Assembly: GCA_964464975.1 (NCBI GenBank)
Contig: CAYXKV010000001.1
Coordinates: forward strand, 457 to 64,456
DNA from: an uncultured Candidatus Saccharibacteria bacterium
GTDB taxonomy: Bacteria > Patescibacteriota > Minisyncoccia > Phycocordibacterales > WO2-35-19
Direction: 5' to 3'
Length of the DNA stretch: 64,000 nucleotides
This document shows, in pieces, positions 4,019-56,092 of the stretch. Position 1 is the stretch's first letter, and each line of letters begins with the position of its first letter. The notes below the pieces were generated by a model. That model ran no database searches. It saw only the letters and a program-made list of their open reading frames with translations, and was not told the origin of the DNA. A program made the translations under genes and the position numbers.

Positions 4019-4042
4019 ATCCTCCTGTGATATAATTGATAC

Positions 4043-7783: not shown

Positions 7784-7911
7784 TCCATCACATCCTTCCC
7801 GCTGACAGCCGCGCAGAAATGATGAGTCTGATCGGTGCCAGAAAAAACAAGAGAATTTTGACTAACATGCTAGTTTGATTCAATCATAATTCGCTGATAC
7901 AATCAACTTTT

Positions 7912-10397: not shown

Positions 10398-10546
10398 AAA
10401 TAAAATTACAACTTTTTTACGATCGTAAGGATATTGTAAATGCATTTATACAAAATGTGCGCTTACCCGTCCGAAGTCTTGACGAAGGAGAGGCCGCATG
10501 AAAATAAGCGATTCTAAACCATTAATTTTTTTGGTAAGATTGCATT

Positions 10547-11152
10547 ATGTCGCAAACTATCGAGGAAAGGAGAGAAATGATGAGAAAAATAAGGGACGAA
10601 GTGGTCTCTCTCAAGGAGTCGCCCCTGTATGAATTCAGGATTGAGAACAAAAACCTTCCGGTTATCGGAGAGGGCAGCCATTTTGCAAAGATAATGTTTA
10701 TTGGAGAAGCCCCGGGCAGGAACGAAGCGAAATACGGCAGGCCCTTCTGCGGCCGCGCGGGAGATATTTTGAATGAGCTACTTGCTGGTGTTGCTATAAG
10801 AAGAGAGGATGTTTATATAACAAACATAGTCAAAGATCGACCACCTGCAAACCGGGATCCTTTACCAGGCGAAATAGAAATTTATGGACCTTTTTTGGAT
10901 AGGCAGGTTGAAATTATTGAGCCAAAAGTTATTGTTACACTCGGGCGTTATTCGATGTATTACATAATGCCCAAATTCGGTCTAGAATTTGAATTGGAAC
11001 CAATAAGCAAAAATCACGGCAAAGTTTTTGATGGGCAAGCCAGCTATGGCCCTATTAAGATCGTGCCTCTCTATCATCCAGCTGTCGCTGTCTACAATAG
11101 GCACACCTTGGATTTACTCAAAAAAGATTTTGAAGTTCTCAGGGAATTGTAG
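10547..11152 (+). CDS. Uracil-DNA glycosylase, family 4
   Basis: GEAPGRNEAKYGRPFCGRAGDILNELL matches the family-4 UDG motif. Confidence 0.8.
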   Translation: MSQTIEERREMMRKIRDEVVSLKESPLYEFRIENKNLPVIGEGSHFAKIMFIGEAPGRNEAKYGRPFCGRAGDILNELLAGVAIRREDVYITNIVKDRPPANRDPLPGEIEIYGPFLDRQVEIIEPKVIVTLGRYSMYYIMPKFGLEFELEPISKNHGKVFDGQASYGPIKIVPLYHPAVAVYNRHTLDLLKKDFEVLREL

Positions 11153-11164
11153 TATGGTTTTCAC

Positions 11165-15036: not shown

Positions 15037-15107
15037 ATTGATTTTTGGCCCTATTTTTGCTTATTTCTAAGGCAAAGATATACGAAAAATATGCTATCTT
15101 AGTAGGT

Positions 15108-16916: not shown

Positions 16917-16988
16917 TTTTCTTTTAAGAATTTCAATGGTTTCCACAATTTGATTGAGGAAAGAGTAAAACGGCGCTATAATCGTAAT

Positions 16989-25668: not shown

Positions 25669-25688
25669 AAATTTGCTATAATAAAGCC

Positions 25689-26771
25689 ATGAAAGACTAT
25701 TACTCAATACTCGGAGTAGACAAAAAGGCTTCAAAGGATGAAATCAAGAAAGCTTTCAGGAAGCTTGCTCACGAGTACCATCCTGACAAAAAAGGAGGCA
25801 ACGCTGAGAAATTCAAGGAAGTGAACGAGGCATACAGTGTCTTATCCGATGACAAGAAGAGGTCTCAGTACGATACTTTCGGTAATGTTTATGGGCAGGC
25901 ACAGCGAGGCGGCTTTCAGGGCAATTGGGAGGATATCTTCAAGCAGGCCGGGTTTGGGCAGGGCGGGTTTGATTTTACCCAGGGTGAAAACGACTTCGGA
26001 TGGGACCTTGGCGACATTTTCGGCGAATTTTTTGGAGGCAGGAAACAAGCAAAGAGAGGCAGGGATATTTCGATTGATATAGAGCTTTCATTTGAGGAAT
26101 CGGTCTTTGGAGCCGAGCGAAACATATTGCTTAACAAAGTTTCGGTCTGCGAGGTTTGCAACGGAAGCGGTGCCAAAAAGGGTTCCGAGAAGATTGAATG
26201 CAAAACCTGCAACGGCAAAGGAAAGATCAGAGAGGTGAAGCGGTCGATTTTTGGCTCTATAGAGATGAGCCGAGGTTGCGAGACTTGCGGCGGGGAAGGC
26301 AAGGTTCCGAAGGAAAAGTGCTCGTCCTGCGGAGGTTTGGGAATTTTGAAAAAGGAAAAGGAAGTAAAAATTAAAATTCCTGGAGGCATTGATAACGGCG
26401 AGATGATCCGCCTCTCCGGCGAGGGCGAGGCCCTTAGAGGCGGAGTAAGCGGCGACCTTTACATCAAGGTTCATGTTAAAAGGCACAAGATATTCAAGAA
26501 AGAGGGCAGTGACTTAGTCATGTTCCTCGAGGTCAAGCTCTCCGACGCCCTTCTCGGTGCTGAACACAAAATAGAAACTTTAGACGGCCCCGTCACTATA
26601 AAAATTCCAGAGGGCACAGAGACGGGCGACGTTCTTTCGATCAAGGGCAAAGGTGTCCCGTTCGGATCAAAACGTGGCGACATATTAGCGAAGGTTCGCG
26701 TAATTATGCCGAAGAAACTCTCCAAATCCTCCCGCGAGGCCATAGAGAAGCTCAAGGCTGATGGAATTTGA
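25689..26771 (+). CDS. dnaJ: Chaperone DnaJ
   Basis: J-domain (DYYSILGV...HPDKK), G/F region and four CxxCxGxG zinc repeats. TGCTATAAT sits 6 nt upstream of the ATG. Confidence 0.9.
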   Translation: MKDYYSILGVDKKASKDEIKKAFRKLAHEYHPDKKGGNAEKFKEVNEAYSVLSDDKKRSQYDTFGNVYGQAQRGGFQGNWEDIFKQAGFGQGGFDFTQGENDFGWDLGDIFGEFFGGRKQAKRGRDISIDIELSFEESVFGAERNILLNKVSVCEVCNGSGAKKGSEKIECKTCNGKGKIREVKRSIFGSIEMSRGCETCGGEGKVPKEKCSSCGGLGILKKEKEVKIKIPGGIDNGEMIRLSGEGEALRGGVSGDLYIKVHVKRHKIFKKEGSDLVMFLEVKLSDALLGAEHKIETLDGPVTIKIPEGTETGDVLSIKGKGVPFGSKRGDILAKVRVIMPKKLSKSSREAIEKLKADGI

Positions 26772-26783
26772 TATAATCTTCTT

Positions 26784-26918
26784 ATGGATAAAAAAAGTAA
26801 AATTTTTTTTGTAATTGTCCTGCTAGCCCTTACAGTTTCTGTCGTGCTCACTTACGTTAGGACGATGGTGTCAAATGATTATCGAATAATTGGAGTGGAA
26901 GAAAATTCGGGAAAATAA
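26784..26918 (+). CDS. Small (44 aa) single-TM protein, not in the ORF track
   Basis: MDKKSKIFFVIVLLALTVSVVLTYVRTMVSNDYRIIGVEENSGK. TGATATAAT sits 7 nt upstream of the ATG. Confidence 0.3.
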   Translation: MDKKSKIFFVIVLLALTVSVVLTYVRTMVSNDYRIIGVEENSGK

Positions 26919-27892: not shown

Positions 27893-27928
27893 ATTTAATT
27901 TGTTAAAATTTGATTATATAGTAAAGTA

Positions 27929-28879
27929 ATGTTAATGAAAAGACCTGAAACGCTTTACAAAGTAATGTCCTTTTGCAGGAAAGAGGGATATTTTAGGGAG
28001 ATAAAGAATGAGGATTCAGAGCCCGAGGCGGTAAGATTCGAACACAAAAACATAAAGTCCACGGGCCTCGGCGTATTGGACGCAGTCAGGTGTATTCAGG
28101 ATATAAACAGGACAAATTTTTTTCTAAGCGAAATAAAAAAACTAATAAAGAAAGGTGACGAGGTGCTCGAAGCAGGCGTTGGTACAGGTATTCTGTCTTT
28201 TGCAGCCGCAGAACAAGGCGCTCAAGTTTTAGGGATCGAACTCAATAAGGCAATACTAAAACTTGCAAAAAAAATAAAAGATAGCAAGAATCTGAGCTTT
28301 TTAAAAAATTCTACGCACTTCTTGCACAAAAACGCCCTGAAATTTAAGCCGGATCAAAAATTCGATTTCATAATATCAGAAAACATTTATACTGGGATGC
28401 TTTACGAGAAGCAGGTCCAGATAATGAATCATCTTCTGCAATTTTTGAAGCGAGGCGGAAAGGTTTTGCCAAGCGAATTGCTATCCTACATATCATTGTG
28501 CGAAGTTCATACTTCCTTGTTGCAAAAAAAGCTTCCCTTGATTGTGGTAAGCGACATAAAGGACAAAAACCTCTACAAAAATCTTTCAGACGAAGCGTTA
28601 TACAGCCATTTGAAGTTTGACAGGAAAAACAAAGAATACTTAAACGAAACAAAAGTTGTAAAAATTTTGAGATCCGGGAATATAAACGGCCTCTATATTA
28701 CTGCGCAAATCAAAATGCCTTCCGGCAAAATGCTCTCCGGATCAAAGACATCTTTTTTTGGTAACGACATAATTATTCCTATAAAGTCGACAAAAAAAGT
28801 TAAAAAAGGTGATAAAATTACAATTAGGATTTCCTACAAACTCGGAGGAAGCCCCAAAAAAATCAAGATTTTAATATAA
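27929..28879 (+). CDS. Class I SAM-dependent methyltransferase with PRMT-like motifs
   Basis: Motif I VLEAGVGTGILSFAAAEQGA. Post-I motif VLGIE. A double-E-loop-like segment FDFIISENIYTGMLYEKQ resembles PRMT DIIISEWMGYxLLYESM. Confidence 0.55.
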   Translation: MLMKRPETLYKVMSFCRKEGYFREIKNEDSEPEAVRFEHKNIKSTGLGVLDAVRCIQDINRTNFFLSEIKKLIKKGDEVLEAGVGTGILSFAAAEQGAQVLGIELNKAILKLAKKIKDSKNLSFLKNSTHFLHKNALKFKPDQKFDFIISENIYTGMLYEKQVQIMNHLLQFLKRGGKVLPSELLSYISLCEVHTSLLQKKLPLIVVSDIKDKNLYKNLSDEALYSHLKFDRKNKEYLNETKVVKILRSGNINGLYITAQIKMPSGKMLSGSKTSFFGNDIIIPIKSTKKVKKGDKITIRISYKLGGSPKKIKILI

Positions 28880-33076: not shown

Positions 33077-33179
33077 ATAATAGTATAAACCCATCGAGCC
33101 GTCCTGTCAAGCCTCCAATCCACAGCTTATCGGAACCTCTTTTGTAGTGTTGGCTTATATGATTTTGTAAAATAAGCCT

Positions 33180-34814
33180 ATGACCCAAAAAGAGGCGCTT
33201 GATATTTTAAAGACTGGGAGGAATGTTTTCCTGACAGGTGCGGCTGGTAGCGGCAAAACCCATGTCATACGCGAATATATAAATTTTCTCAAAGGACTTG
33301 GGGCGAACATAGGAATCACCGCTTCGACCGGCATAGCCGCGACCCACATGGGCGGCATAACTATTCACTCCTGGTCAGGCATAGGCATAAGAGATTCTCT
33401 CAAAAAAGAAGAGATAACAGAGATTGCAGAAAAGCAGCACGTCAAACGGAAAGTCCGGGACGCTAAAGTGCTTCTGATCGACGAGATCTCGATGCTTCAC
33501 CATTTCCGGCTTGATATGGTTGATGTAGTGCTTAGGGAAATCAAAGGAGTAAGCGAGCCTTTTGGCGGTATGCAGGTTGTTTTGGTCGGAGATTTTTTTC
33601 AGTTGCCGCCTGTATTCAGGCGCGGAGAGAGAGGGGGGAGATTTGCGTACCACTCAAACGCCTGGAAAGATCTTTCCCCTAAGGTCTGCTACCTATCCGA
33701 ACAGCACAGGCAAAATGATGCTCAGTTTATCAATATTTTAAATTCCATAAGGCTCTCCAAATCGCCGGATGAAATTTTAAAATCCCTCCAAGTGAGGCTC
33801 GGTGTTAAGCCCCGCGACATCCACACCAGGCTATATTCGTTGAACAAGGACGTTGATTTTGAAAACGAAATCGAGCTTCAGAAAATCAAAGGTCCAGCCA
33901 CAGAGTTTCAAATGATGAGCCGCGGCAGGAAGAGTCTTGTCGAAGCACTCAAGAAAAGCTGTCTCGCCCCAGAAAATCTGCGATTGAAAGGGGGGGCTAA
34001 GGTGATGTTCGTTAAAAACAACTTTGAGGAAGGCTATGTGAACGGCACTATGGGCACAGTCGTAGAGTGCAGAAGCAAAAGCATAAAGGTAAGAACCACT
34101 TCGGGAGAGACTATAGACGTCGAGACAGCAAGCTGGGCCATTGAGGAGAACGGCAGAGTGCTCGCTGAGATCATACAATACCCTCTACGGCTCGCCTGGG
34201 CCATTACCATTCACAAGAGCCAGGGTATGTCTCTTGATTCGGCCCTTATTGATCTGTCAAATTCTTTTGAGAAAGGTATGGGCTATGTCGCCCTGTCGAG
34301 AGTGCGTTCGCTTGAAGGACTTTTTCTTAAGGATATCAATCCTAAAGCCCTTGAGGTCGACCCTGATGTGCAGACGGTGGATGTCAAATTCAGGGAAGAT
34401 TCAAGCGCCAATTCTTTCCATGTTAGGAACATGAGCAAAGAGAAACTGCGCAGACTTCATAGCGAATTTGAAAATAATGTAAGGGTCGAGAAGAAAGACA
34501 GGAAGCTAAGCACAGTGGAAGAAACCAAACTCATGCTCGACTCTGGCGCCAGCGTCAAAGATATCGCCAAGGCGCGCCGCCTCAAGCCGGGCACCATTAT
34601 CGAACATATAGAAGAAATCAAAAGAGAAGAGCCCGGATACAATATAAGAAACTTGCATCGCACCATCCCAGAGGCCAAGTTCAGGCAAATTTACAGCGCT
34701 TTCCGCAAGACCGGGATTTCGCCGGGTGGCGAGTATCGCCTGTCTCCGGTTAAGGAGCTTTTGGGCTCCAAGTACTCCTACGACGACCTCCGCCTAGTCC
34801 GGTTGTTTTTGTAG
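33180..34814 (+). CDS. PIF1-like ATP-dependent DNA helicase with a C-terminal HTH
   Basis: Walker A (GAAGSGKTH), Walker B (LLIDEISM), and the Pif1 signature GDFFQLPPV. Confidence 0.75.
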   Translation: MTQKEALDILKTGRNVFLTGAAGSGKTHVIREYINFLKGLGANIGITASTGIAATHMGGITIHSWSGIGIRDSLKKEEITEIAEKQHVKRKVRDAKVLLIDEISMLHHFRLDMVDVVLREIKGVSEPFGGMQVVLVGDFFQLPPVFRRGERGGRFAYHSNAWKDLSPKVCYLSEQHRQNDAQFINILNSIRLSKSPDEILKSLQVRLGVKPRDIHTRLYSLNKDVDFENEIELQKIKGPATEFQMMSRGRKSLVEALKKSCLAPENLRLKGGAKVMFVKNNFEEGYVNGTMGTVVECRSKSIKVRTTSGETIDVETASWAIEENGRVLAEIIQYPLRLAWAITIHKSQGMSLDSALIDLSNSFEKGMGYVALSRVRSLEGLFLKDINPKALEVDPDVQTVDVKFREDSSANSFHVRNMSKEKLRRLHSEFENNVRVEKKDRKLSTVEETKLMLDSGASVKDIAKARRLKPGTIIEHIEEIKREEPGYNIRNLHRTIPEAKFRQIYSAFRKTGISPGGEYRLSPVKELLGSKYSYDDLRLVRLFL

Positions 34815-34884
34815 TTATCGCCAATAAATCTCATTTTTCCATATTAAGGACAAGAGGGATAATTTCTGGTACCTTAGAAGAGCC

Positions 34885-35808
34885 ATGGAAAGCATAAAAA
34901 TTCAGTTAGGGGAGCTCAAGGGTTACAAGCTTTTGGATTGCGGTGAGAAGCAAAAGCTTGAAGAAGTCGGAGGTATAAGGATAGTAAGAAGCGAGCCAAG
35001 AGCGTGGTGGAAGAAGAGCCTGCCGGAGAATGAATGGGGGAAGGCCCAGGCGGCCTTTGAATCTGAAAATCAAAAGTCCTGGAAGTTTGCACAAGACTTA
35101 GCCTTGAACGAAGCAGTTGTTAACATAGGCATAGAAGGTATAAAGGCCAAAGTAAGGTTTGGTGGAAGATCCAAACATATAGGGATTTTTCCTGAGCAGG
35201 CGGGGCAGTGGAGGTGGATAAGGGATAGAATTATGAATCATAAGTCAGGAATTATGGGAGAAAAAAAAGAGGAAAGGAAATTGAATATTTTAAATTTGTT
35301 TGGATACACTGGGATAGCGAGCCTGGTAGCGGTCGCGTCAGACGCGGCAGTCAAAGTTACTCACGTGGACGCCTCCGCGCAGTCAATTAATTGGGCTAAG
35401 GTGAATCAGAGGATTTCAGGGCTAGAAAACGCGCCCATCCGCTGGGTTGTTGATGATGTTTTGAAATTCATAAAAAGAGAAATTAAAAGAGGCGAGAGGT
35501 ATAACGCCATCATACTGGACCCGCCAAGCTACGGCAGGGGGCCAAAAGGCGAGGTTTGGAAGGCAGAGGAGAAGCTCGGAGAACTCTTAGAGAGTTGCGG
35601 AATGCTTTTAACCGATAGGCCCCTTTTTGTTTTGTTCAATATGTATTCGACCGAGCTTTCATCACTATCGTTGCGAAATATGCTTGTGGATATGGTTCCG
35701 CAGAGTATCGCAAAGGAAGGTCATTTCGAGTGCGGAGAGCATGCAATCAGACAGGCAAATTCGTCCCGCCTCCTTCCAATGTCCATCTTTGCGCTGTGGA
35801 CCGAATGA
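34885..35808 (+). CDS. Class I SAM-dependent RNA methyltransferase (RlmI/YccW-like)
   Basis: PUA-like N-terminus, then a Rossmann MTase domain (LNLFGYTGIASLVAV...ILDPPSY). Confidence 0.6.
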   Translation: MESIKIQLGELKGYKLLDCGEKQKLEEVGGIRIVRSEPRAWWKKSLPENEWGKAQAAFESENQKSWKFAQDLALNEAVVNIGIEGIKAKVRFGGRSKHIGIFPEQAGQWRWIRDRIMNHKSGIMGEKKEERKLNILNLFGYTGIASLVAVASDAAVKVTHVDASAQSINWAKVNQRISGLENAPIRWVVDDVLKFIKREIKRGERYNAIILDPPSYGRGPKGEVWKAEEKLGELLESCGMLLTDRPLFVLFNMYSTELSSLSLRNMLVDMVPQSIAKEGHFECGEHAIRQANSSRLLPMSIFALWTE

Positions 35809-35855: not shown

Positions 35856-35923
35856 AGAATAAATGGCGGTCGAAGTATGGGTAGAGTGTTATGAATAAGC
35901 GTTATTTGTGCTAATATTGTGGC

Positions 35924-36940
35924 ATGGGAAAAACTTCAGACAGCAAGAGTGCCCGAACTATACTTTCAGGGGTAAAGCCAACGGGTAGGCCCCACTTGGG
36001 AAATTATTTTGGAGCCATGAGGCAGTTTGTGGAGCTTCAGAATGGCAGCAACCCTGACGTCGAGGTCGGCACTTCATATTTTATGATAGCCGATTATCAT
36101 GCTTTGAATTTCGTCCAGAATGCAGAAGAGATGCGCAGACTCTCGCTTGGAGTAGCTCTCGATTTTTTGGCTATCGGCCTCAATCCGGAGAGGTCAGTTA
36201 TTTTTAAACAGTCAGAAGTTCCCGAGCACACCGAGCTTGCTTGGATCTTCGACTCGATCACAACTATTCCTTATCTCAAGCGCGCCCACGCTTACAAGGA
36301 CGCGACAGCAAAAGGCGGAGAAGAAGATGTTTCCGCAGGCACATTCACGTACCCCATGCTTATGGCTGCAGATATTTTGCTATACGACACCGACCTTGTC
36401 CCTGTGGGTCAAGACCAGAAGCAGCACATCGAATACGCTCGTGACACCGCCGAGAAGTTCAATAGGATTTTTGGCGCTTCGAATTCACTCACCGCAGGCA
36501 ATATTTTCAAATTACCTGATGAATATATATTGAAAGATGTCGAAATCGTACCCGGCACAGACGGCCGCAAAATGAGCAAAAGTTATGGCAACACCATAAG
36601 CCTCTTTGCGGAAGAGAGCGAGATCGAGGAGAAGGTTATGGGTATTGTTACGGACTCAGAGGGGGAAAGGCCAGAAAATGTTTATAAGATCCATAGGCTG
36701 GTAAGGGACGAGGCGGAGCTTCAAAAAATCTATGAGGAGAACAGGGGCAAGTATAAAATGATCAAAGAAATACTCATAGACGATCTTAAAAACTTCATCC
36801 GACCACTCAGGGAAAAGAGGGGGGAGATTTCAAGGGATTTGAGTTTTGTGGAAAGAGTGCTTAAAAAAGGCAGTGAAAAGGCCCGCGCAGCGGCGGGCCT
36901 CAAAATGGGATTGGTTCGGAGTGTTATCGGCGTTCGATAG
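35924..36940 (+). CDS. trpS: Tryptophanyl-tRNA synthetase
   Basis: Class I fold: GVKPTGRPHLGNYFGA, KMSKSYGN. Confidence 0.9.
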   Translation: MGKTSDSKSARTILSGVKPTGRPHLGNYFGAMRQFVELQNGSNPDVEVGTSYFMIADYHALNFVQNAEEMRRLSLGVALDFLAIGLNPERSVIFKQSEVPEHTELAWIFDSITTIPYLKRAHAYKDATAKGGEEDVSAGTFTYPMLMAADILLYDTDLVPVGQDQKQHIEYARDTAEKFNRIFGASNSLTAGNIFKLPDEYILKDVEIVPGTDGRKMSKSYGNTISLFAEESEIEEKVMGIVTDSEGERPENVYKIHRLVRDEAELQKIYEENRGKYKMIKEILIDDLKNFIRPLREKRGEISRDLSFVERVLKKGSEKARAAAGLKMGLVRSVIGVR

Positions 36941-38985: not shown

Positions 38986-38986
38986 G

Positions 38987-39343: not shown

Positions 39344-39367
39344 TCAAAATACTGCTATAATTGCGCC

Positions 39368-40789
39368 ATGCAAAGAACTTATATAAAGGACTTAAAAGGT
39401 AGTGAGGGCAAGGAAGTTTCTATAAAAGGCTGGGTGAATGTGAGGAGGGACCAGGGCAAAATGGTCTTTATCGACATGAGGGACATGACTGGCATCGTCC
39501 AGTGCGTTGTCTTGCCAAAAAGTAGAGCTATAGAGAAGGCAAAAGAGATCAGGGACGAATGGGTATTAGAAGTGAGGGGGGTGGTAAACAAAAGACCTGA
39601 CAAAAACGTAAACACAGATGCCCCAAACGGCGACATAGAGATTGAGATAGGGCAGATAGAAGTATTAAACAAAGCAGAAACCCCTCCTTTCGACGTCTCT
39701 GCAGATACCAAGGAAGTAAATGAGGACATCCGCCTAAAGTACAGGTACCTAGACCTTCGAAGCACAAGAATGCAGAAAAATATAAGGATGCGCCACCATA
39801 TAATCAAGCATATTCGCGATTATCTCGACCATGAGAATTTTACAGAAATTGAGACTCCCATTCTTACCAAATCCACACCTGAAGGCGCCCGCGACTACGT
39901 AGTGCCATCTCGGCTTTACAGAGGAGAGTTTTACGCCCTCCCCCAATCCCCGCAGCAGTACAAGCAGCTCCTGATGACAGGGGGGATTGAGCGGTATTTT
40001 CAGATTGCCAAATGCCTTCGCGACGAAGACACCCGCGGAGACCGACAGCCGGAATTCACACAACTTGATATGGAAATGAGTTTTGTCGAGAGAGAGGATG
40101 TGATGAAAATAAACGAGGGGCTCTTGATTTCAATCGTAGAAAGCCTCTATCCGGAAAAGAAAATCCAGGAAAAACCTTTTCCGCGTATTTCTTACAAAGA
40201 AGCGACTGAAAAGTACGGCACCGATAGGCCGGATATAAGGAAGGATAAAAATGATCCGAACCTTTTAGCCTTCTCGTGGGTTATTGATTTCCCGTTTTTT
40301 GAGAAGACAGGCAGCTCCGACAACAAACAGACAAAGGGAGAGTGGACATTCACTCACAATCCGTTTTCAAGACCCATACCGGAGCATATGAAAAATCTTT
40401 TAGAGAAACGCGAAATAGGCGAGATCATTACTTCCCAGTATGACGTGGTGCTTAACGGTTTTGAGATCGGGGGTGGTAGCGTAAGAAATCATCAGTATGA
40501 AGCTTTAGAGAAAGTTTTTGAAATCCTTGGTTATGAGAAGGATGCTATCGAAAAGGACTTCGGTCACATGCTCTCTGCCTTCAAACTCGGTACTCCGCCT
40601 CATGGTGGCATTGCATGGGGCCTCGACAGGTTGGTAATGCTTTTGCAGGACGAACCAAACATCCGTGAAGTCATTGCCTTTCCCAAAACAGGGGAGGGTA
40701 AGGATTATATGATGAATTCCCCAAGTCCCATCTCCGACCGCCAGCTCCGTGAGCTCGGCCTCCAAATCGTAAAACAAGATAAGAAATAA
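39368..40789 (+). CDS. aspS: Aspartyl-tRNA synthetase, short archaeal/eukaryal-type lacking the GAD insertion domain
   Basis: OB-fold N-domain, then class II motifs (FRDEDTRGDRQPEFTQLDMEMSF, GGGSVR). 473 aa. Confidence 0.9.
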   Translation: MQRTYIKDLKGSEGKEVSIKGWVNVRRDQGKMVFIDMRDMTGIVQCVVLPKSRAIEKAKEIRDEWVLEVRGVVNKRPDKNVNTDAPNGDIEIEIGQIEVLNKAETPPFDVSADTKEVNEDIRLKYRYLDLRSTRMQKNIRMRHHIIKHIRDYLDHENFTEIETPILTKSTPEGARDYVVPSRLYRGEFYALPQSPQQYKQLLMTGGIERYFQIAKCLRDEDTRGDRQPEFTQLDMEMSFVEREDVMKINEGLLISIVESLYPEKKIQEKPFPRISYKEATEKYGTDRPDIRKDKNDPNLLAFSWVIDFPFFEKTGSSDNKQTKGEWTFTHNPFSRPIPEHMKNLLEKREIGEIITSQYDVVLNGFEIGGGSVRNHQYEALEKVFEILGYEKDAIEKDFGHMLSAFKLGTPPHGGIAWGLDRLVMLLQDEPNIREVIAFPKTGEGKDYMMNSPSPISDRQLRELGLQIVKQDKK

Positions 40790-40837
40790 GGAGCGACTTT
40801 CCGCAGAAAAAAAGGTAGTTTGTGGTAAAATAGAGCC

Positions 40838-41569
40838 ATGAATGGAGGGTTTAAGGTCAGGGTGGGACAGTTTGAAGGGCCGCTTGATTTGCTGCTCGAC
40901 CTCGTTGAGAAAAGGAGGCTTCATATAAGCGATGTCACCCTATCGCAGGTTGCTGATAATTTTATAAATTACGTTAAGTCGTTTGATGAATTTCCAATGA
41001 AGGACTCTGCGGATTTCATCTTGGTGGCATCGACCCTGCTTCTTATCAAGTCCAAATCCCTTTTGCCCGGCCTCAGCCTCACCGAAGAGGAGCAGGAGAG
41101 TATCGAAGAACTTGAAAGGAGGCTCGAGTCTTACAAGACATATAAAGAGGCAGCGCAGGTTCTTTCTAAAATCTTTGGAAAATTTCTTTATTTTCCAAAA
41201 GAGAAAAGGTGGCAAAAATCAGTATTTTACCCAACTTCTGAAATAACAACTTCGAATTTGAAGAACGCTATCCTTAGTGCTATCGAGAGCATGCCGAAAA
41301 AGGCTGAGCCTCTTTCAAAGATCGGCGTCCGAAAAATAATTAGTCTTGAAGAGATGATTGAGAGACTGAGAGAGAAAATAGAGAGTTCGCTTAAAATGAG
41401 CTTCCGCGAATTTTCCATGATGAACAAGGCGGAGAGGATCGATGTTATCGTGAGCTTTCTCGCCATGCTTGAGCTTGTAAAGCGCGGCTTGGTGCGAGCC
41501 GAACAGCACAGCCACTTCGAGGATATCAACATTGAGTTGGAAAGAACGGGAGTGCCAACATATAATTAA
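40838..41569 (+). CDS. scpA: Segregation and condensation protein A
   Basis: GPLDLLLDLVEKRRLHISDVTLSQV. Confidence 0.85.
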   Translation: MNGGFKVRVGQFEGPLDLLLDLVEKRRLHISDVTLSQVADNFINYVKSFDEFPMKDSADFILVASTLLLIKSKSLLPGLSLTEEEQESIEELERRLESYKTYKEAAQVLSKIFGKFLYFPKEKRWQKSVFYPTSEITTSNLKNAILSAIESMPKKAEPLSKIGVRKIISLEEMIERLREKIESSLKMSFREFSMMNKAERIDVIVSFLAMLELVKRGLVRAEQHSHFEDINIELERTGVPTYN

Positions 41570-44154: not shown

Positions 44155-44202
44155 CTTATTTAACAAACCAGAAAATATTAAATCGTGTGCTAAAATGATG
44201 AT

Positions 44203-45309
44203 GTGGCCGGAAAAGTTTCTAGGATAAGCAAGCCGTTTCTTCTCTGGACCGTGGTGCTCACGGTCGGCGGTTTTTTTATTTTCAGCTCCGCATCTCTCGG
44301 CGTCTTGGCTCGTGATGAGGTCAAGTTTTCTAATGTCGCCTTCAACCAGCTTTTTTACGGACTGTTTTTCGGCTCGCTTGCCTGCTTGTATTTCTCAAAG
44401 CTTGACTACCACGTTTGGAAAAAGAGCGCTTTTTACCTTTTTATAATTTCTCTTGTTCTCACTCTTTTGGTTTTCGTCCCCCCACTCGGCATGGAGCACG
44501 GCGGGGCAAAGCGCTGGATAAATTTGAGGTTCATCACTTTTCAACCGGCAGAATTTCTGAAAATTTCTTTCATTGCATATTTTGCGGCATGGCTTTCGGC
44601 CATTAAATCCAAAGTTTCAACCTTTAAATGGGGTCTTTTACCATTTATGATTTTCATGATTATAATCGGGGGAACGCTTCTGTCCCAACCTGATACCGAC
44701 ACTTTCGCAGTCATACTTTTCGCGGCAACTGCAATGTTTCTCGCCGCCGGGGCAAGCTGGAAACATTTGTCTGTGCTGTTTATTGTAGGCCTCGTCGGTC
44801 TAGCAGGCCTTGCCTACACTCGACCTTACGTCAAGCAGAGGATCGAGGTTATGCTCAACCCATTGGCAAACCAGCAGACAAGCGGTTACCAGCTTACCCA
44901 ATCTCTTATCGCTGTCGGATCAGGAGAGCTTTTCGGCCGAGGTTTTGGGCAAAGCGTCCAGAAATTTCACTATCTGCCGGAACCTATCGGGGACTCGGTT
45001 TTTGCCGTCGCCGCTGAGGAGTTCGGTTTTATCGGCGCCTCTATAATCATGTTCATTTTTGTTATGTTTTCTCTCGAAGGCCTCAAGATATCGGCGGGCA
45101 CCAAGGATGATTTTGGAAGGTTATTTTCCCTTGGAATTGTTATACTTATTGTGTCCCAGGCATTTGTAAACATAGGCGGGATGATAGGTATTTTGCCTCT
45201 TACAGGCATCCCTCTGCCTTTTGTAAGCCACGGCGGTACAGCCCTCTTCATCACCCTTATAGAAGCGGGAATCATCATGAACATATCAAGGCACAGCAAA
45301 AAATTATAA
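44203..45309 (+). CDS. ftsW: SEDS-family peptidoglycan polymerase FtsW/RodA (GTG start)
   Basis: FQPAEFLKISFIAY..., PLPFVSHGGTALF. Confidence 0.85.
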   Translation: MAGKVSRISKPFLLWTVVLTVGGFFIFSSASLGVLARDEVKFSNVAFNQLFYGLFFGSLACLYFSKLDYHVWKKSAFYLFIISLVLTLLVFVPPLGMEHGGAKRWINLRFITFQPAEFLKISFIAYFAAWLSAIKSKVSTFKWGLLPFMIFMIIIGGTLLSQPDTDTFAVILFAATAMFLAAGASWKHLSVLFIVGLVGLAGLAYTRPYVKQRIEVMLNPLANQQTSGYQLTQSLIAVGSGELFGRGFGQSVQKFHYLPEPIGDSVFAVAAEEFGFIGASIIMFIFVMFSLEGLKISAGTKDDFGRLFSLGIVILIVSQAFVNIGGMIGILPLTGIPLPFVSHGGTALFITLIEAGIIMNISRHSKKL

Positions 45310-46464: not shown

Positions 46465-46613
46465 AAAATTACCTCGATTCGTAACACTCCCTTGATCTTT
46501 CTCTTTAAAATAAAGGGGGAAGGTGTTATGAATTATGTCTCAGGGTAAGAGGGGGGTTCTGGGGTGTCATGAAAGGCGTCGAAAAACGATCAATTTTTTG
46601 CTAAAATGTCGAT

Positions 46614-47975
46614 ATGGAAAACACAGGTAAAGTGGTAGTGCGCTACCCTCCAAGCCCCACCGGCCCTTTTCATGTAGGCAACGCGAGGACCTTCCTTTAC
46701 AACTGGCTTTTTGCCAAACAGCATGGAGGTAAAGTAGTTTTCAGAATAGAAGACACTGACAAAGAGCGTTCACGAGAAGAATTTGCGCAAGATATAATTG
46801 AAAACCTGAAATGGTTAAAAATAGAACCTGATTTTTCTACTACTGTCAAACAGTCGGAGAGGGGAGCGGTTTACCGCAAATATATGGAAAAGATGATTGG
46901 CAAAGGCTTTGCGTATATATCCAAAGAAGACGCCCCTGAAGAAGGACAGAGGGACGAGGTCGTCAGGTTCAAAAACCCTAATAAAAAAATCATTTTTGAA
47001 GACCTGATCCGCGGCCAAATAGAATTTGATACGGCAGAGCTCAAGGATTTCATTATCGGCAAAAGCCTAGATGAGCCAATTTATCATTTGGCAGTGGTCA
47101 TAGACGATTTCGAGATGGGAGTGACACACGTGATTAGAGGAGACGATGGGATATCAAACACCCCAAGACAGATACTTATCCAAGAAGCCATAGGAGCCCA
47201 AAGGCCGGTTTACGCTCACCTGCCCCTCATCCTGGCTCCCGACAAGACCAAACTGTCAAAGAGAAAGCATGGCGAACAAGTCTCCGTGACCTTTTATCGC
47301 AAGCGCGGGTACTTGCCAGAAGCCCTTATAAACTTCCTCTCAATGATCGGATGGAACCCAGGAACTAATCAGGAAATTTTTTCAATCGAGGAGCTTGTTT
47401 CTACCTTTAGTATAGAGAAAGTCCAAAAGAAAGGCGCCATCTTCAATATTGAAAAACTTGACTGGCTCAACCGCGAGTGGATGCGCAAACTTCCAAAAGA
47501 CGAACAGATGGCGGGATTCATAAAAGAACTTTCTGAGACAAGATTTTCAAATTCAGATAAGCTCAAAGACCAAAGGTATATTGGCTTGATCTTTAACCTT
47601 GTCCTCGACAGGATACACAAATGGACAGACATCGGAGATCTGGCTCTGAAAGGCGAGTTTGACTGCTTTTTTGAGGAACCAACGCTTCTCAAGAGTTCGA
47701 TTCACTGGAAGGACTCTTCTCCCGATGTGGCCGCCAAAAACCTAAAGGACTTATTGTCTCAGGCATCTCTATTAAATGACGGGGAGGAAGAAAAATTCGC
47801 AGAAATCATGATGACTTTAGCGCAAGAGAGGGGCAAAGGTGATGTTCTTTGGCCAATACGCTATGCTCTCTCCGGGAAAGAGAAGTCACCCGATCCAGCT
47901 TCACTTGTTAGGATATTAGGAATTAGCAGGTCGAGAGAGAGGATCACCAAAGCAATCGAAACTTTAAAAACTTAA
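46614..47975 (+). CDS. gltX: Glutamyl-tRNA synthetase
   Basis: RYPPSPTGPFHVGNARTFLYNW, KLSKRKHG. Confidence 0.9.
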   Translation: MENTGKVVVRYPPSPTGPFHVGNARTFLYNWLFAKQHGGKVVFRIEDTDKERSREEFAQDIIENLKWLKIEPDFSTTVKQSERGAVYRKYMEKMIGKGFAYISKEDAPEEGQRDEVVRFKNPNKKIIFEDLIRGQIEFDTAELKDFIIGKSLDEPIYHLAVVIDDFEMGVTHVIRGDDGISNTPRQILIQEAIGAQRPVYAHLPLILAPDKTKLSKRKHGEQVSVTFYRKRGYLPEALINFLSMIGWNPGTNQEIFSIEELVSTFSIEKVQKKGAIFNIEKLDWLNREWMRKLPKDEQMAGFIKELSETRFSNSDKLKDQRYIGLIFNLVLDRIHKWTDIGDLALKGEFDCFFEEPTLLKSSIHWKDSSPDVAAKNLKDLLSQASLLNDGEEEKFAEIMMTLAQERGKGDVLWPIRYALSGKEKSPDPASLVRILGISRSRERITKAIETLKT

Positions 47976-49267: not shown

Positions 49268-49310
49268 TTATTTTATTTTTTAGTATTTAATTATCCGCTA
49301 AAATAAAAAC

Positions 49311-49568
49311 ATGGTAGATAAACTAAAAACACGATCGCGAGCGACCTCAGGAGGTTTTATACAGTTAGTTTTCATCGTTATCACAGCCCTTATCATACTC
49401 AAATACGCTTTTGAAGTTGATATAGTCGGTTTTTTGACCTCAGGCAAGGTCAAGGACTGGCTTGATAAATTATATGCCTTCGGTTTAGCAGGGTGGAATA
49501 AATATAAGGAAATCATCACAGCAGGGTGGACGTGGTGGTCTGATCTGTATAAAAAAATATTTAATTAG
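49311..49568 (+). CDS. Small hypothetical membrane protein
   Basis: 85-aa ORF with one TM; no family recognised. Confidence 0.3.
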   Translation: MVDKLKTRSRATSGGFIQLVFIVITALIILKYAFEVDIVGFLTSGKVKDWLDKLYAFGLAGWNKYKEIITAGWTWWSDLYKKIFN

Positions 49569-50625: not shown

Positions 50626-52107
50626 TCAGTATTGGACCGATTCTCCCGGCAAAACTCCGCTTAAAATCTCAATCATTCCGTTATTTCCCGTCAGTCCTAG
50701 CTCCACTCTGGTTTTATTTGTCTTGCCGTTAATCATTTTCTCGACAAAACCTAACTCGCCATCCTTCTTTACCGCATAGGAAGGCAAGACAACGACTCCG
50801 TTCTTTCTTGATGTTTCTATCCTTATATCTGCCGTCAATCCGCTTTTAAGCCTTTCCACCTTATCCATAAGGTCAACCCTCACTTTATAATTTACGACTC
50901 CGTCAATTACCACTTCACCGGGCTCAATATACGAGACTGATCCTGAAAACACCTCGCCCGGGAAAGCATCGAAAGTGATTTGAGCCGGATTGCCTTGAGA
51001 GATTTTGCCTATGTTTATCTCTGAAATATTCGACTCTATGTACATTTTCCCATTACTCGAAATTCTGACAAGTTTGGACCCGGACAATACCGTCTCCCCT
51101 ACTTTTGCATCTTGTCTTATGATAACGCCATCAAAAGGAGCAATTATCGAAGACTTTCCGATCTCGGCCATTATAGCCGAGACGCTCGCTCTCGCTTGCG
51201 ACACCTTGGCCTCCTGTGCGAGTACGTCTTCAAACTCCCCCGTTTCCCCAAGAAGAGGAGCCGAATTGAACTTATCCTTAGCCGTCACTAGACTCGATAT
51301 AGCTGATGATACTTGAGTTCTTGCCGACGCGGCAGTGGTCTTGTATGTATTGACCGTCGAAAGATAAGAGTATTCCGCAGGAGTGAATGTGTTGATAGCT
51401 CCGGCTACCTTATCGAGAAATGATAAAATCTTTTTAAGATCGGTAATGGATTTATCGGCAACTGACACGATGTTTTCGCCATTTATTGCGCCGAGGGAAA
51501 TCTGCCAATCTTTGAGGATTTTTTCAACATCCTTTCTTTCGTTACTTACACTCAGAGAGATCTCGGTCGGTATATCAAAATAGTGCACATAGTTTCCGTC
51601 AGTGAAAGTGACCTCAAATTTAGGATTGGAAGTGTTGTTGGTAAAAAACTGGTCAGCCTTGTTCCGGATCGCGTCATCCGCCGAAGCGAAACCTTCCCTT
51701 ATAGAGGCATCGAGATTCTTCTGGGCATCAGCAAAAGAGATTGGCGCGGTGCTTTTAAGTTCGCGTAAGTTTATCAACTCCTCTTCGAGTAAAGCTTTTG
51801 CCTTTGCGAGATCTGCATTTTCCGACGCCGTTTCAAGCGAAGCGACAACAGCACCTTTTGGTACAACCTCTCCTACGCTAAAATTTACTCTCGACACCCT
51901 GCCGGATTTGTCGAACCCGAGCTCTACGCTTTGATTGGGCTTTACCTTGCCTGCTGCTGTGACTTCTTGAACGATATCGCCTATCTGAGCGGTAGCTGCT
52001 TGCTTGCCATTCTTCCCGTTTCTAACAATAAAAAAACTGCAGGTAACAACTATAGCAAGGCCTATTATGACATATTTTTTCGAAAGGAAAAAAGTGATTT
52101 TTCTCAT
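50626..52107 (-). CDS. HlyD-family periplasmic adaptor (membrane fusion protein) of an ABC efflux system
   Basis: N-terminal TM, long coiled-coil hairpin, then beta-barrel and lipoyl-like segments. Confidence 0.8.
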   Translation of the reverse strand: MRKITFFLSKKYVIIGLAIVVTCSFFIVRNGKNGKQAATAQIGDIVQEVTAAGKVKPNQSVELGFDKSGRVSRVNFSVGEVVPKGAVVASLETASENADLAKAKALLEEELINLRELKSTAPISFADAQKNLDASIREGFASADDAIRNKADQFFTNNTSNPKFEVTFTDGNYVHYFDIPTEISLSVSNERKDVEKILKDWQISLGAINGENIVSVADKSITDLKKILSFLDKVAGAINTFTPAEYSYLSTVNTYKTTAASARTQVSSAISSLVTAKDKFNSAPLLGETGEFEDVLAQEAKVSQARASVSAIMAEIGKSSIIAPFDGVIIRQDAKVGETVLSGSKLVRISSNGKMYIESNISEINIGKISQGNPAQITFDAFPGEVFSGSVSYIEPGEVVIDGVVNYKVRVDLMDKVERLKSGLTADIRIETSRKNGVVVLPSYAVKKDGELGFVEKMINGKTNKTRVELGLTGNNGMIEILSGVLPGESVQY

Positions 52108-52130
52108 CGTAAGCTATTATAACAAAAATT

Positions 52131-54782: not shown

Positions 54783-54869
54783 TTTTGGTTCGTTTTTATT
54801 ATACTATTCGTAACTGATTATATCAGTTTTGTTTTTGTTTTTCTCTTAAAATTTTGCTTTTATTTTACA

Positions 54870-55145
54870 AAAATGGCACATAAAAAGGCGGCAGGAACAA
54901 CCAAAAACGGTAGAGACTCAAACCCGAAATACCTCGGGGTCAAACTCTATGACGGAAGTGTTGCATCCGTAGGTTCTATAATCATCCGGCAGAGAGGTTC
55001 AAAGATTCTTCCGGGCACCGGAGTTCGCATGAGCCGCAACTACACCATCTTTGCCATGAAAAACGGTAAGATCAAGATGTCGCAGAAACGCAAGGCTCAT
55101 TTCGACGGCAAGACCATGCTAAAGAAAGTTGTAAGCGTCGTCTAA
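54870..55145 (+). CDS. rpmA: 50S ribosomal protein L27
   Basis: [24 protein letters not shown]...; the start is taken at MAHKK within the longer ORF. Confidence 0.85.
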
Positions 55146-55604: not shown

Positions 55605-56054
55605 TTACTCCGCTTCTATAGTAAGCAGAAACTCTCCTTCCCCGTGATCGGTTTTTACGTTTATTTTGTGGTCGCCGATTTCTTTAATAGGTTTTAAAAT
55701 TGCGATCATATCAACCGGAATTTCAATGTTGGCCTCCTTCTTGAGAGCCTCCGTTATTTCAACCTCATGAATTTTTTCAAAAAGATGCCCCTTTTCGTTT
55801 GCTTTTTTCTTAATTACCACTTTGACTCCGCTCAATAGCTCAAGCTGCTTTTCCAAGAGTTTTTCCTTTATTTCTTGTTCTGTATCATGCGCGGACTTAA
55901 GCATTTCTGCTTTTTTTACAGCATTTACTGTCGCATATTCAGCAAGTTTATTTGGGATCAGATAATTGTTGGCGTATCCATCGGATACTTCTTTTACTTC
56001 ATGTTTCTTACCCAAATTTTTTACATCCTCTTTTAAAACGATTTTCATGGGCAC
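55605..56054 (-). CDS. rplI: 50S ribosomal protein L9
   Basis: MKIVLKEDVKNLGKKHEVKEVSDGYANNYLIP. Confidence 0.9.
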   Translation of the reverse strand: MPMKIVLKEDVKNLGKKHEVKEVSDGYANNYLIPNKLAEYATVNAVKKAEMLKSAHDTEQEIKEKLLEKQLELLSGVKVVIKKKANEKGHLFEKIHEVEITEALKKEANIEIPVDMIAILKPIKEIGDHKINVKTDHGEGEFLLTIEAE

Positions 56055-56092
56055 AATGATAATCTATATTTCTGTTTAAGGCAACGGCTGGG

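What the first reader, a model, noticed from the sequence alone, without database searches (positions are those of the whole stretch)
39351..39370. Pervasive 'extended -10 plus 6-8 nt plus start codon' architecture implies mostly leaderless mRNAs
Seen in sequence: TGnTAnAAT-like elements end 6-8 nt before the start codon at many genes.
- 4027 TGATATAAT before the ATG at 4043
- 7893 TGATACAAT before 7912
- 10526 TGGTAAGAT before 10547
- 16977 TATAAT before 16989
- 25671 TGCTATAAT before dnaJ at 25689
- 26768 TGATATAAT before 26784
- 35909 TGCTAATAT before trpS at 35924
- 39351 TGCTATAAT before aspS at 39368
- 40821 TGGTAAAAT before scpA at 40838
- 44188 TGCTAAAAT before the GTG at 44203
- 46597 TGCTAAAAT before gltX at 46614
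That spacing places the transcription start at or within 1-2 nt of the start codon. No Shine-Dalgarno is possible in those cases.
Basis: seen in the sequence. Interest (0 to 1): 0.5.

Follow-up and report, generated by a model that had tools for sequence, protein, structure and literature searches.

The report
Leaderless-gene promoters in a Paceibacteria (CPR) contig
In this ultra-small uncultured bacterium, about a quarter of the genes have a promoter -10 box placed exactly 6-8 bases before the start codon, so their mRNAs most likely start at the AUG with no leader; this layout is already known from Actinobacteria, Deinococcus and Mycoplasma, but I found no report of it for this lineage.

Summary
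Some motif coordinates are off by up to 6 nt. TGnTAnnnT-N6-ATG occurs 9 times in the window against 1.46 expected from shuffles, and 8 of the 9 are gene starts. Among 60 mechanically called ORFs, the extended -10 box ends exactly 6 nt before the start codon in 8 (background 0.18 per offset, P = 2e-11).

The contig comes from a Patescibacteria/CPR bacterium of the class Paceibacteria. The same peak appears in 1.18 Mb from 80 related genomes (73 at 6 nt against 2.8 background) and is absent from an E. coli control.

The box behaves as a promoter, not a ribosome-binding site:
- It carries TG at -15/-14 and T at -17.
- It has almost no -35 element.
- It is nearly absent before tightly coupled operon-internal genes (2% against 15-20%).
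- It is followed by ATG or GTG, but not TTG.

After curation, 16 strong and 4 weak cases remain among roughly 64-67 genes. That is about 25-30% of genes and about half of the recognisable promoters, so "mostly leaderless" overstates it. The other promoters give 5-30 nt leaders (two are about 60-80 nt), and Shine-Dalgarno motifs are at chance level.

This is the known "-10 adjacent to ORF" class (GeneMarkS-2 group C) in a new, low-GC, Shine-Dalgarno-poor lineage. No transcription-start data exist, so the mechanism is inferred.

The parts
4028..4045 (+). TGATATAAT, 6 nt, ATG of a 411-aa hypothetical protein (24-nt gap after the upstream gene)
7895..7914 (+). TGATACAAT, 8 nt, ATG of an ATP-cone/Mrr-like protein
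10532..10549 (+). TGGTAAGAT, 6 nt, ATG of a uracil-DNA glycosylase family protein. An alternative ATG at 10577 is preceded by AGGAG, so this start is the least certain of the set.
15092..15110 (+). TGCTATCTT, 7 nt, ATG of alaS (the Pfam domain begins at residue 5)
16977..16991 (+). TATAAT (no TG), 6 nt, ATG of a 475-aa hypothetical protein
25674..25691 (+). TGCTATAAT, 6 nt, ATG of dnaJ. It lies within the 20-nt dnaK-dnaJ spacer. The J domain starts at residue 3, so the start codon is secure.
26769..26786 (+). TGATATAAT (overlaps the dnaJ stop codon), 6 nt, ATG of a 34-aa predicted membrane peptide. Whether this small gene is real was not verified.
27917..27931 (+). TATAGT, 6 nt, ATG of a methyltransferase. 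A second box, TGTTAAAAT, lies 19 nt upstream and would give a 13-nt leader.
33168..33182 (+). TAAAAT, 6 nt, ATG of a Pif1-like helicase
35909..35926 (+). TGCTAATAT, 6 nt, ATG of trpS
   Evidence: 9 of 18 orthologues also carry an extended -10 box 5-9 nt upstream.
39353..39370 (+). TGCTATAAT, 6 nt, ATG of aspS (the flagged site)
   Evidence: The start position is conserved in about 75 orthologues, 41 of which have TANNNT 5-9 nt upstream. The JGI gene call uses the same start.
40823..40840 (+). TGGTAAAAT, 6 nt, ATG of scpA
44188..44205 (+). TGCTAAAAT, 6 nt, GTG of ftsW/rodA (the Pfam domain begins at residue 14)
46599..46616 (+). TGCTAAAAT, 6 nt, ATG of gltX. This is the only site that also passes a two-hexamer -35/-10 scan.
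49299..49313 (+). TAAAAT, 6 nt, ATG of an 85-aa hypothetical protein
52105..52124 (-). TGTTATAAT, 8 nt, ATG of a HlyD-like membrane-fusion protein
34867..34887 (+). Weak candidate: TGGTACCTT, 9 nt, ATG of a SAM methyltransferase
11153..11167 (+). Weak candidate: TATGGT, 6 nt, ATG of pepF
54861..54875 (+). Weak candidate: TATTTT, 6 nt, ATG of rpmA (L27)
56046..56061 (-). Weak candidate: TATCAT, 7 nt, ATG of rplI (L9)

Best explanation
These are promoters for the housekeeping sigma-70-family sigma factor, of the "extended -10" type. The consensus is T-R/T-T-G-n-T-A-n-A-A-T, with essentially no -35 hexamer.

The last T of the -10 box lies 6 nt (sometimes 7-9 nt) before the first base of the start codon. 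RNA polymerase normally starts 7 nt after that T, preferably on a purine. The transcript should therefore begin with the A of AUG (or the G of GUG) and have no 5' UTR. Such mRNAs have no Shine-Dalgarno sequence. By established knowledge from E. coli, mycobacteria and Deinococcus, they are translated when a 70S ribosome or 30S-IF2-fMet-tRNA complex binds the 5'-terminal AUG directly.

In this compact genome the promoter often fills the whole 12-70 nt spacer between co-directional genes (dnaK->dnaJ, aspS->scpA, mraY->ftsW). Many genes in apparent clusters therefore have their own leaderless transcript.

About 16-20 of roughly 64-67 genes in the window use this mode. The other promoters give short A/T-rich leaders without Shine-Dalgarno motifs, and tightly abutting genes are presumably translated by coupling.

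Shown here: motif, spacing, enrichment, context dependence, start-codon identity and recurrence across the class. Inferred: the transcription start position and the translation mechanism.
For: 1. Spacing. The extended -10 box ends exactly 6 nt before the start of 8 of 60 ORFs (background 0.18 per offset, P = 2e-11). Against shuffles the count is 9 against 1.46. Six intervening bases is the canonical distance from the -10 box to +1; (PMC12641261) places the -10 element 7 bp upstream of the transcription start across bacteria.

2. Sigma-specific features. 12 of the 16 strong sites have TG one base upstream of the hexamer, mostly as TTTG or TGTG. In 270 aligned d=6 cases from the window plus relatives, T is 0.49 and G is 0.46 at -15/-14, T is 0.50 at -17, and there is only a faint TTG at -35..-33. 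The two-hexamer scan is at chance, 33 against 24.8.

3. Promoter-like context. In 1.18 Mb of related genomes the box is present before 2% of genes lying less than 10 nt from the upstream gene. It is present before 15-20% of genes with 10-79 nt gaps and 15% of divergent genes. In the E. coli control, Shine-Dalgarno motifs persist before tightly coupled genes.

4. Start-codon preference. After the box, ATG counts are 89 and 48 at d=6 and d=7 (background about 9). GTG counts are 10 and 11 (background about 3.5). TTG counts are 1 and 9 (background about 5.5) and CTG 0 and 3. This fits a purine transcription start and an AUG preference.

5. Secure start codons. DnaJ residue 3, Hsp70 residue 4, AlaRS residue 5 and MurG residue 3 align to Pfam profile position 1. 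The aspS N-terminus M-x-R-T-Y-I-K-D-L is conserved in about 75 orthologues. JGI gene calls agree for aspS, scpA and scpB.

6. Lineage-wide pattern. Over 1115 mechanically called ORFs in the 80 loci the extended box peaks at d=6 (73) and d=7 (23) against a background of 2.8, P = 1e-74. The peak is present in all four identity tiers. None was seen in 39 E. coli genes.

7. Validated precedent. The same architecture has been tested experimentally elsewhere: TANNNT 6-7 bp before about one third of D. radiodurans ORFs (PMC12340547), and 6-8 nt in M. tuberculosis (PMC6028130).
Against: - There are no 5'-end data for this organism or for any Paceibacteria.
- Plain TANNNT has a high background in A/T-rich spacers. 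Control offsets d0-3 give 16-28% per four offsets in the relatives, so the four weak cases and some plain-hexamer cases could be chance.
- Several sites lie only 12-24 nt after an upstream co-directional gene, with no terminator between them. Polycistronic read-through transcripts, in which these start codons are internal, must also exist.
- The 7-9 nt spacings may give 1-3 nt leaders rather than none.
- For the UDG gene, a downstream ATG (10577) preceded by AGGAG is an alternative start.
Confidence: 0.8

Rival explanations
1. The TAnAAT-like box acts at the RNA level as a non-Shine-Dalgarno ribosome-binding or A/U-rich enhancer element within a leadered or polycistronic mRNA. This would be like the non-SD motifs of Bacteroidota (GeneMarkS-2 group B), or would involve pairing with an altered 16S 3' end.
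For: - Shine-Dalgarno motifs are at chance in the window.
- A subgroup of Parcubacteria reportedly lacks the anti-SD motif (PMC9297842), so some substitute signal is needed.
- Several boxes lie in very short spacers after co-directional genes (dnaK-dnaJ 20 nt; dnaJ to the small ORF 12 nt), where read-through transcription is likely.
Against: - The box is nearly absent before tightly coupled internal genes (2% against 15-20%), which is where a ribosome-binding signal would be most needed.
- The TG at -15/-14 and T at -17 are contacts of RNA polymerase sigma and have no rationale as a ribosome-binding signal.
- The spacing is sharper than is typical for ribosome-binding sites (73, 23, 8 and 19 at d=6, 7, 8 and 9).
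- TTG starts are not enriched after it.
- The identical box also occurs 14-34 nt upstream of other genes, where it can only be a promoter.
Confidence: 0.07
2. The boxes are real promoters but the true start codons lie further downstream, so the mRNAs have ordinary leaders and the adjacent ATG is incidental.
For: For the UDG gene, a second ATG 30 nt downstream (10577) follows AGGAG. Two of the sites precede hypothetical proteins with no Pfam anchor for the N-terminus (4043, 16989).
Against: - Pfam domains begin within 3-14 residues of the proposed starts for dnaJ, alaS, trpS and ftsW.
- aspS orthologues conserve the N-terminus from residue 1.
- ATG occurs at exactly +6 far above chance irrespective of gene calls.
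- The JGI gene calls agree.
Confidence: 0.05
3. It is a compositional or ORF-boundary artefact. A/T-rich spacers plus in-frame TAA/TAG stop codons just before the first ATG could mimic TANNNT at d=6.
For: At d=6 the hexamer is in frame with the start codon, so TAA or TAG within the box closes the upstream reading frame. Plain TANNNT is common in A/T-rich DNA (39 observed against 28 expected, only marginal).
Against: - Other in-frame offsets show no peak (d=3: 2; d=9: 2; d=12: 4, against d=6: 13).
- The TG-extended form is about 6-fold above the shuffle expectation.
- The motif-centred test uses no ORF information.
- The E. coli control gives nothing.
Confidence: 0.02

Closest known systems
Bacterial leaderless genes with the -10 box next to the ORF (GeneMarkS-2 "group C"; "TA-led" genes of Zheng et al. 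2011): Actinobacteria and Deinococcus-Thermus
   Same: - TANNNT ends 6-8 nt before the start codon (M. tuberculosis 6-8 nt, D. radiodurans 6-7 bp).
- It affects about 20-35% of genes, or 25-50% of operons.
- It is restricted to genes that head a transcript.
- It is not tied to a functional class; here it covers aaRS genes, chaperone, cell-division and hypothetical genes.

   Different: - The lineage is Patescibacteria/Paceibacteria, with 44% GC and genetic code 11. Catalogued code-11 group C genomes are almost all high-GC.
- The TG extension is prominent here.
- In group C the leadered and internal genes use Shine-Dalgarno sites, whereas here such motifs are at chance level.
- Transcription-start and proteomic validation exists for those phyla and not for this one.
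Mycoplasma/Mollicutes promoters and leaderless transcripts (low-GC group C genomes with code 4)
   Same: - A reduced, low-GC genome.
- 30-60% of transcripts predicted to be leaderless.
- From my own knowledge (Weiner et al. 2000, M. pneumoniae): promoters dominated by the -10 box with a weak -35, and many short or absent leaders.
   Different: Different phylum and genetic code (TGA is a stop codon here). No 5'-end mapping exists for Paceibacteria.
Extended -10 ("TGn", Gram-positive "-16 region" TRTG) promoters
   Same: TG one base upstream of TAnAAT, often TTTG or TGTG, with no recognisable -35. This is the defining layout of -35-independent extended -10 promoters (own knowledge: Voskuil and Chambliss 1998; Mitchell et al. 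2003).
   Different: In the classical examples the promoter is followed by a leader carrying a ribosome-binding site. Here half of the boxes abut the start codon.
Non-Shine-Dalgarno initiation in Bacteroidota (GeneMarkS-2 group B)
   Same: Shine-Dalgarno motifs are scarce, and upstream regions are A-rich for the leadered and internal genes.
   Different: The group B motif precedes internal genes as well and cannot be a promoter. The box here avoids tightly coupled internal genes and carries sigma-contact bases.

Membership tests
Bacterial leaderless-gene architecture (GeneMarkS-2 group C / TA-led genes) | A -10-like TANNNT motif with a sharp positional peak about 6-8 nt upstream of start codons | tested here: met
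   Window: peak at d=6 (13 TANNNT, 8 TG-extended, of 60 ORFs). Relatives: 143 and 73 of 1115. P = 2e-11 and 1e-74.
Bacterial leaderless-gene architecture (GeneMarkS-2 group C / TA-led genes) | The motif belongs to genes that head a transcript, not to tightly coupled operon-internal genes | tested here: met
   Extended box at d6-9 in 2% of genes with a gap under 10 nt, against 15-20% for gaps of 10-79 nt and 15% for divergent genes.
Bacterial leaderless-gene architecture (GeneMarkS-2 group C / TA-led genes) | A substantial share of genes or operons (more than about 20% of genes; 25-50% of operons) | tested here: met
   16 strong plus 4 weak cases among roughly 64-67 genes, about half of about 35 recognisable promoters. 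This covers one 64-kb window only, not the genome.
Bacterial leaderless-gene architecture (GeneMarkS-2 group C / TA-led genes) | Primary transcript 5' ends map at the start codon, within 0-5 nt | not testable with these tools
   No transcriptome is available for this organism. The only CPR transcription-start set cited (N. lyticus, RNA-seq inferred) is from another class, and that paper is not held.
Bacterial leaderless-gene architecture (GeneMarkS-2 group C / TA-led genes) | The remaining (leadered or internal) genes use Shine-Dalgarno ribosome-binding sites | tested here: not met
   SD 4-mers at d4-10 in 2 of 60 window ORFs, at background level. SD 5-mers in 58 of 996 ORFs in the window plus relatives. 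This is a descriptive rather than defining trait of group C, so it marks a variant and not an exclusion.
Extended -10 promoter | TG at -15/-14, one base upstream of the -10 hexamer | tested here: met
   12 of 16 strong sites. T 0.49 and G 0.46 at those positions in 270 aligned cases.
Extended -10 promoter | A weak or dispensable -35 hexamer | tested here: met
   No -35 consensus at the 16 sites. Information content at -35..-30 is at most 0.08 bit. The two-hexamer scan is at chance.
Extended -10 promoter | Recognition by sigma region 3.0 of the housekeeping sigma factor | not tested
   The primary sigma gene is not in the window.
Non-SD ribosome-binding motif (group B type) | The same motif precedes both first and internal genes of operons | tested here: not met
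   (2% against 15-20%). TTG starts are not enriched.

The most novel reading that the evidence does not exclude
This Paceibacteria lineage may have largely abandoned Shine-Dalgarno-dependent initiation. It may belong to the Parcubacteria subgroup reported to lack the 16S anti-SD motif. On this reading it compensates by giving roughly half of its transcription units a -35-less extended -10 promoter butted against the start codon, often one promoter per gene squeezed into 12-70 nt spacers. The remaining genes would initiate from short A/T-rich leaders or by translational coupling. That would make it a bacterial lineage combining a high leaderless share with near-absence of Shine-Dalgarno use. 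It would also answer the open question of how Parcubacteria without an anti-SD start translation.
Probability: 0.45. Interest if true: 0.55.

Novelty: new member of a known kind. Interest (0 to 1): 0.4.

Why it matters
**Annotation.** Gene finders that assume a ribosome-binding site mis-call starts in genomes like this one. Recognising the -10-N6-ATG rule gives a precise start-codon and promoter predictor for Paceibacteria MAGs, and it reveals small genes such as the 34-aa ORF at 26784.

**Biology.**
- It offers a concrete, testable answer to how the Parcubacteria reported to lack the anti-SD motif (PMC9297842) initiate translation.
- It extends the leaderless-rich group beyond the high-GC Actinobacteria and Deinococcus and the code-4 Mollicutes, to a low-GC, code-11 member of the candidate phyla radiation.
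- It suggests that apparent "operons" in these tiny genomes are partly strings of single-gene leaderless transcription units.

The mechanism itself is well known, so this is an incremental finding and not a surprising one.

Tried and rejected
- **16S rRNA 3' end.** I searched the 80 related loci for it to check the anti-SD sequence.
- **Rfam.** The window holds only one tRNA-Gly. There is no riboswitch or leader RNA that would argue for long 5' UTRs.
- **Classical scans.** Both the two-hexamer promoter scan and the intrinsic-terminator scan over 33-50 kb are at chance. That rules out ordinary -35/-10 promoters at these sites, and it means terminators cannot be used to delimit transcription units.
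- **Orphan box at 49645(-).** It is followed by GGCGGAGGAGG, so I tested it as a small RNA. The fold z-score is -0.6 and there is no Rfam match. Dropped.
- **Literature.** No paper in the library links leaderless mRNAs with Patescibacteria, CPR, Parcubacteria or Saccharibacteria; the co-occurrences are reference-list or unrelated mentions. The GeneMarkS-2 supplementary tables and the TM7x transcriptome paper are not held, so I cannot exclude that CPR genomes were already classed as group C there.
- **Per-gene conservation.** The leaderless state is only partly conserved per gene. Orthologues of mraY and murG, which are not leaderless here, often carry the box in other genomes. Promoter placement is fluid and not gene-specific.
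- **Plain TANNNT-N6-ATG.** Without the TG it is only marginally above shuffles (39 against 28). I therefore did not count weak hexamers as evidence.
Full report
**What the window is**

The window is a 44% GC, gene-dense stretch. It comes from a 66.6-kb JGI metagenome contig (3300037501, Ga0394875_0000572).

Its AspRS is at most 71% identical to proteins from MAGs labelled Candidatus Nomurabacteria, Paceibacterota, Parcubacteria or Patescibacteria. The organism is therefore an uncultured member of the candidate phyla radiation, class Paceibacteria. Some of the hit records are labelled "Saccharibacteria"; I take those labels to be loose and did not test them.

It also names most other genes.

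**Checking the observation**

All eleven motif/start pairs exist. Seven of the motif coordinates are off by 1-6 nt. The gap between the last T of the -10 hexamer and the start codon is 6 nt in ten cases and 8 nt in one. Nine of the eleven have TG one base upstream of the hexamer.

Three independent tests show this is not chance.

| Test | Observed | Expected or background |
|---|---|---|
| TGNTANNNT-N6-ATG in the window against shuffles | 9 (8 are starts of long ORFs) | 1.46 +/- 1.30; none of 100 shuffles reached 9 |
| ATG at d=6 after TGNTANAAT, no gene calls used | 6 of 28 boxes | about 0.45 at other offsets |
| Extended box ending at d=6 before 60 mechanically called ORFs | 8 (d=7: 1; d=8: 2; d=9: 1) | 0.18 per offset; P = 2e-11 |

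Other in-frame offsets (3, 9, 12) show no peak. The in-frame TAA/TAG inside the box is therefore not producing the signal.

There are four weaker ones.

**Relatives and control**

I analysed 1.18 Mb around aspS from 80 related genomes.
- Motif-centred test: ATG follows TGNTANAAT at d=6 and d=7 in 50 and 28 of 346 cases, against about 5 elsewhere.
- ORF-centred test: 73 at d=6 and 23 at d=7 of 1115 ORFs, against a background of 2.8 (P = 1e-74).
- The peak is present in all four tiers of relatedness and is weakest in the most distant tier.
- The aspS start position (M-x-R-T-Y-I-K-D-L) is conserved in about 75 orthologues. 41 of them have TANNNT and 18 have the TG-extended box 5-9 nt upstream, although the spacer sequences are otherwise unrelated.
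- A 50-kb E. coli K-12 control gives 0 of 39 genes with the box. By the same crude measure, 14 of those 39 have a Shine-Dalgarno motif.

**Promoter or ribosome-binding signal?**

Four lines of evidence favour a promoter.
1. Sigma-contact bases. 12 of the 16 strong sites carry TG at -15/-14, mostly as TTTG or TGTG (the Gram-positive "-16 region"). In 270 aligned cases T at -15, G at -14 and T at -17 are each about 0.5. The -35 zone carries at most 0.08 bit. The classical two-hexamer scan is at chance. These are -35-independent extended -10 promoters.
2. Context. The box precedes 2% of genes lying less than 10 nt from the upstream gene, against 15-20% of genes with 10-79 nt gaps. A ribosome-binding signal would be needed most in the first class. 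E. coli Shine-Dalgarno motifs persist there.
3. Start codon. ATG is strongly enriched after the box and GTG modestly. TTG and CTG are not. This fits a purine transcription start and the AUG preference of leaderless translation.
4. The identical box also lies 12-34 nt upstream of other genes, where it can only be a promoter. Examples are dnaK at 14 nt, the S41 peptidase at 24 nt and corA at 30 nt.

Six intervening bases put +1 on the A of ATG, matching the 7-bp rule for the distance from the -10 box to the transcription start. Start codons are secure for dnaJ, alaS, trpS, ftsW, gltX and aspS (Pfam N-terminal coordinates; orthologues; JGI gene calls). The least secure is the UDG gene, where a downstream ATG at 10577 follows AGGAG.

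**How pervasive it is**

My curated table covers 62 genes with defined starts. Adding infA, rpmJ and a few unannotated ORFs gives roughly 64-67 genes. They sort as follows:

| Class | Count |
|---|---|
| Strong leaderless candidates | 16 |
| Weak leaderless candidates | 4 |
| Promoters further upstream, giving leaders of about 5-30 nt (two of about 60-80 nt) | about 17 |
| Abutting or overlapping the upstream gene, with no box | about 12 |
| Unclear | remainder |

This amounts to 25-30% of genes and about half of the recognisable promoters, so "mostly leaderless" overstates the case.

Shine-Dalgarno-like motifs are at background level: 2 of 60 ORFs in the window, and 58 of 996 in the window plus relatives. 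There are isolated exceptions at 55563(-) with AGGAGG and at dacA 42124 with GGAGGA. Across 52 sequences (the window and 51 loci), the leaderless share and the Shine-Dalgarno share are anticorrelated (rho = -0.47, p = 5e-4). The gene counts per locus are small, so this is only a hint.

Many boxes fill very short spacers between co-directional genes (dnaK->dnaJ 20 nt; dnaJ to a 34-aa ORF 12 nt; aspS->scpA 48 nt; mraY->ftsW 48 nt). Canonical terminators are not enriched. Read-through transcripts and per-gene leaderless transcripts therefore probably coexist. This last point is inference.

**Comparison with what is known**

The architecture is the established "-10 adjacent to ORF" leaderless class:
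- GeneMarkS-2 group C: Pribnow box 6-8 nt from the start in M. tuberculosis; Actinobacteria 90% and Deinococcus-Thermus 97% in this group.
- TA-led genes: more than 20% of genes in those phyla.
- D. radiodurans: TANNNT 6-7 bp upstream of about one third of ORFs, validated experimentally.

Low-GC examples catalogued so far are code-4 Mollicutes, while code-11 group C genomes are almost all high-GC.

What differs here is the lineage (Paceibacteria), the low GC content with code 11, the prominent TG extension, and the lack of Shine-Dalgarno use by the remaining genes. A 2022 study found the anti-SD motif in only 48% of Parcubacteria and left open how those organisms initiate translation. I found no paper in the searchable library that connects CPR bacteria with leaderless mRNAs. 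The GeneMarkS-2 supplementary tables could not be checked.

**Verdict**

- It is a new member of a known kind, of moderate interest. Its value lies mainly in annotating CPR genomes and in offering a testable account of translation initiation in Shine-Dalgarno-poor Parcubacteria.

Noticed in passing
window 94-2862 (+): The leucyl-tRNA synthetase (N-terminus runs off the window) has a NUDIX hydrolase domain hit at residues 359-454, between the editing domain and the rest of the catalytic core. This is an unusual insertion for LeuRS.
   Followed up: no
window 2963-4018 (+): A 351-aa protein with a sigma-70 region 4 domain at the N-terminus (residues 24-78) and a HARE-HTH domain (231-289). It has no sigma region 2, which is an odd architecture. 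A perfect TGGTATAAT box at 2867 would give it an unusually long leader of about 80 nt.
   Followed up: no
whole window; L001-L080: Shine-Dalgarno-like motifs are at background level upstream of genes: 2 of 60 ORFs in the window and 58 of 996 in the window plus relatives. Across the sequences, the leaderless share and the Shine-Dalgarno share are anticorrelated (rho = -0.47, p = 5e-4). This is consistent with the reported loss of the anti-SD motif in about half of Parcubacteria.
   Followed up: partly
window 55150-55588 (-): One of the few good Shine-Dalgarno contexts: TGTGTTATAAT-ATGAT-AGGAGG-CGGGT-GTG precedes a 137-aa ORF with a hydrophobic N-terminus. It has no Pfam hit and no homologue in the related loci. 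A 143-aa ORF on the opposite strand competes with it.
   Followed up: partly
window 49637-49645 (-), 50474-50482 (-): Two perfect extended -10 boxes (TGTTAAAAT, TGCTATAAT) sit in intergenic DNA with no start codon at 6-9 nt. The first is followed by GGCGGAGGAGG and a U-run about 50 nt later, but the fold is not better than shuffles (z = -0.6) and Rfam finds nothing.
   Followed up: partly
window 33000-50000: Canonical intrinsic terminators (18 against 19.4 expected) and two-hexamer -35/-10 promoters (33 against 24.8) are both at chance level. Transcription units in this genome cannot be delimited with E. coli-style signals.
   Followed up: no
window 13004-14064 (+): An IS3-family transposase in two overlapping frames: orfA 13004-13258 (HTH) and orfB 13255-14064 (rve integrase, TTG). 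The run CCCAAAAAAAG lies just before the overlap and could be a frameshift site.
   Followed up: no
window 26784-26888 (+): A 34-aa ORF (MDKKSKIFFVIVLLALTVSVVLTYVRTMVSNDYRIIGVE) with one hydrophobic helix. It is preceded by a perfect TGATATAAT-N6-ATG that overlaps the dnaJ stop codon. It is probably a real small membrane protein that would be missed without the promoter rule.
   Followed up: no
window 18470-18835 (+): The apparent 434-nt gap before rpsM holds infA (18470-18718) and rpmJ (18719-18835). They head an infA-rpmJ-rpsM-rpsK-rpsD-rpoA-rplQ cluster whose promoter box (TGATAGCTT at 18439) gives a leader of about 16 nt.
   Followed up: partly
window 14752-15036 (+); 27461-27892 (-); 62720-63901 (-): A SemiSWEET-type sugar transporter (94 aa), a SET-domain protein (143 aa), and a large serine-recombinase-like protein that overlaps the 3' end of tRNA-Gly(CCC) at 62658-62729. 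The last is a possible integration site.
   Followed up: no
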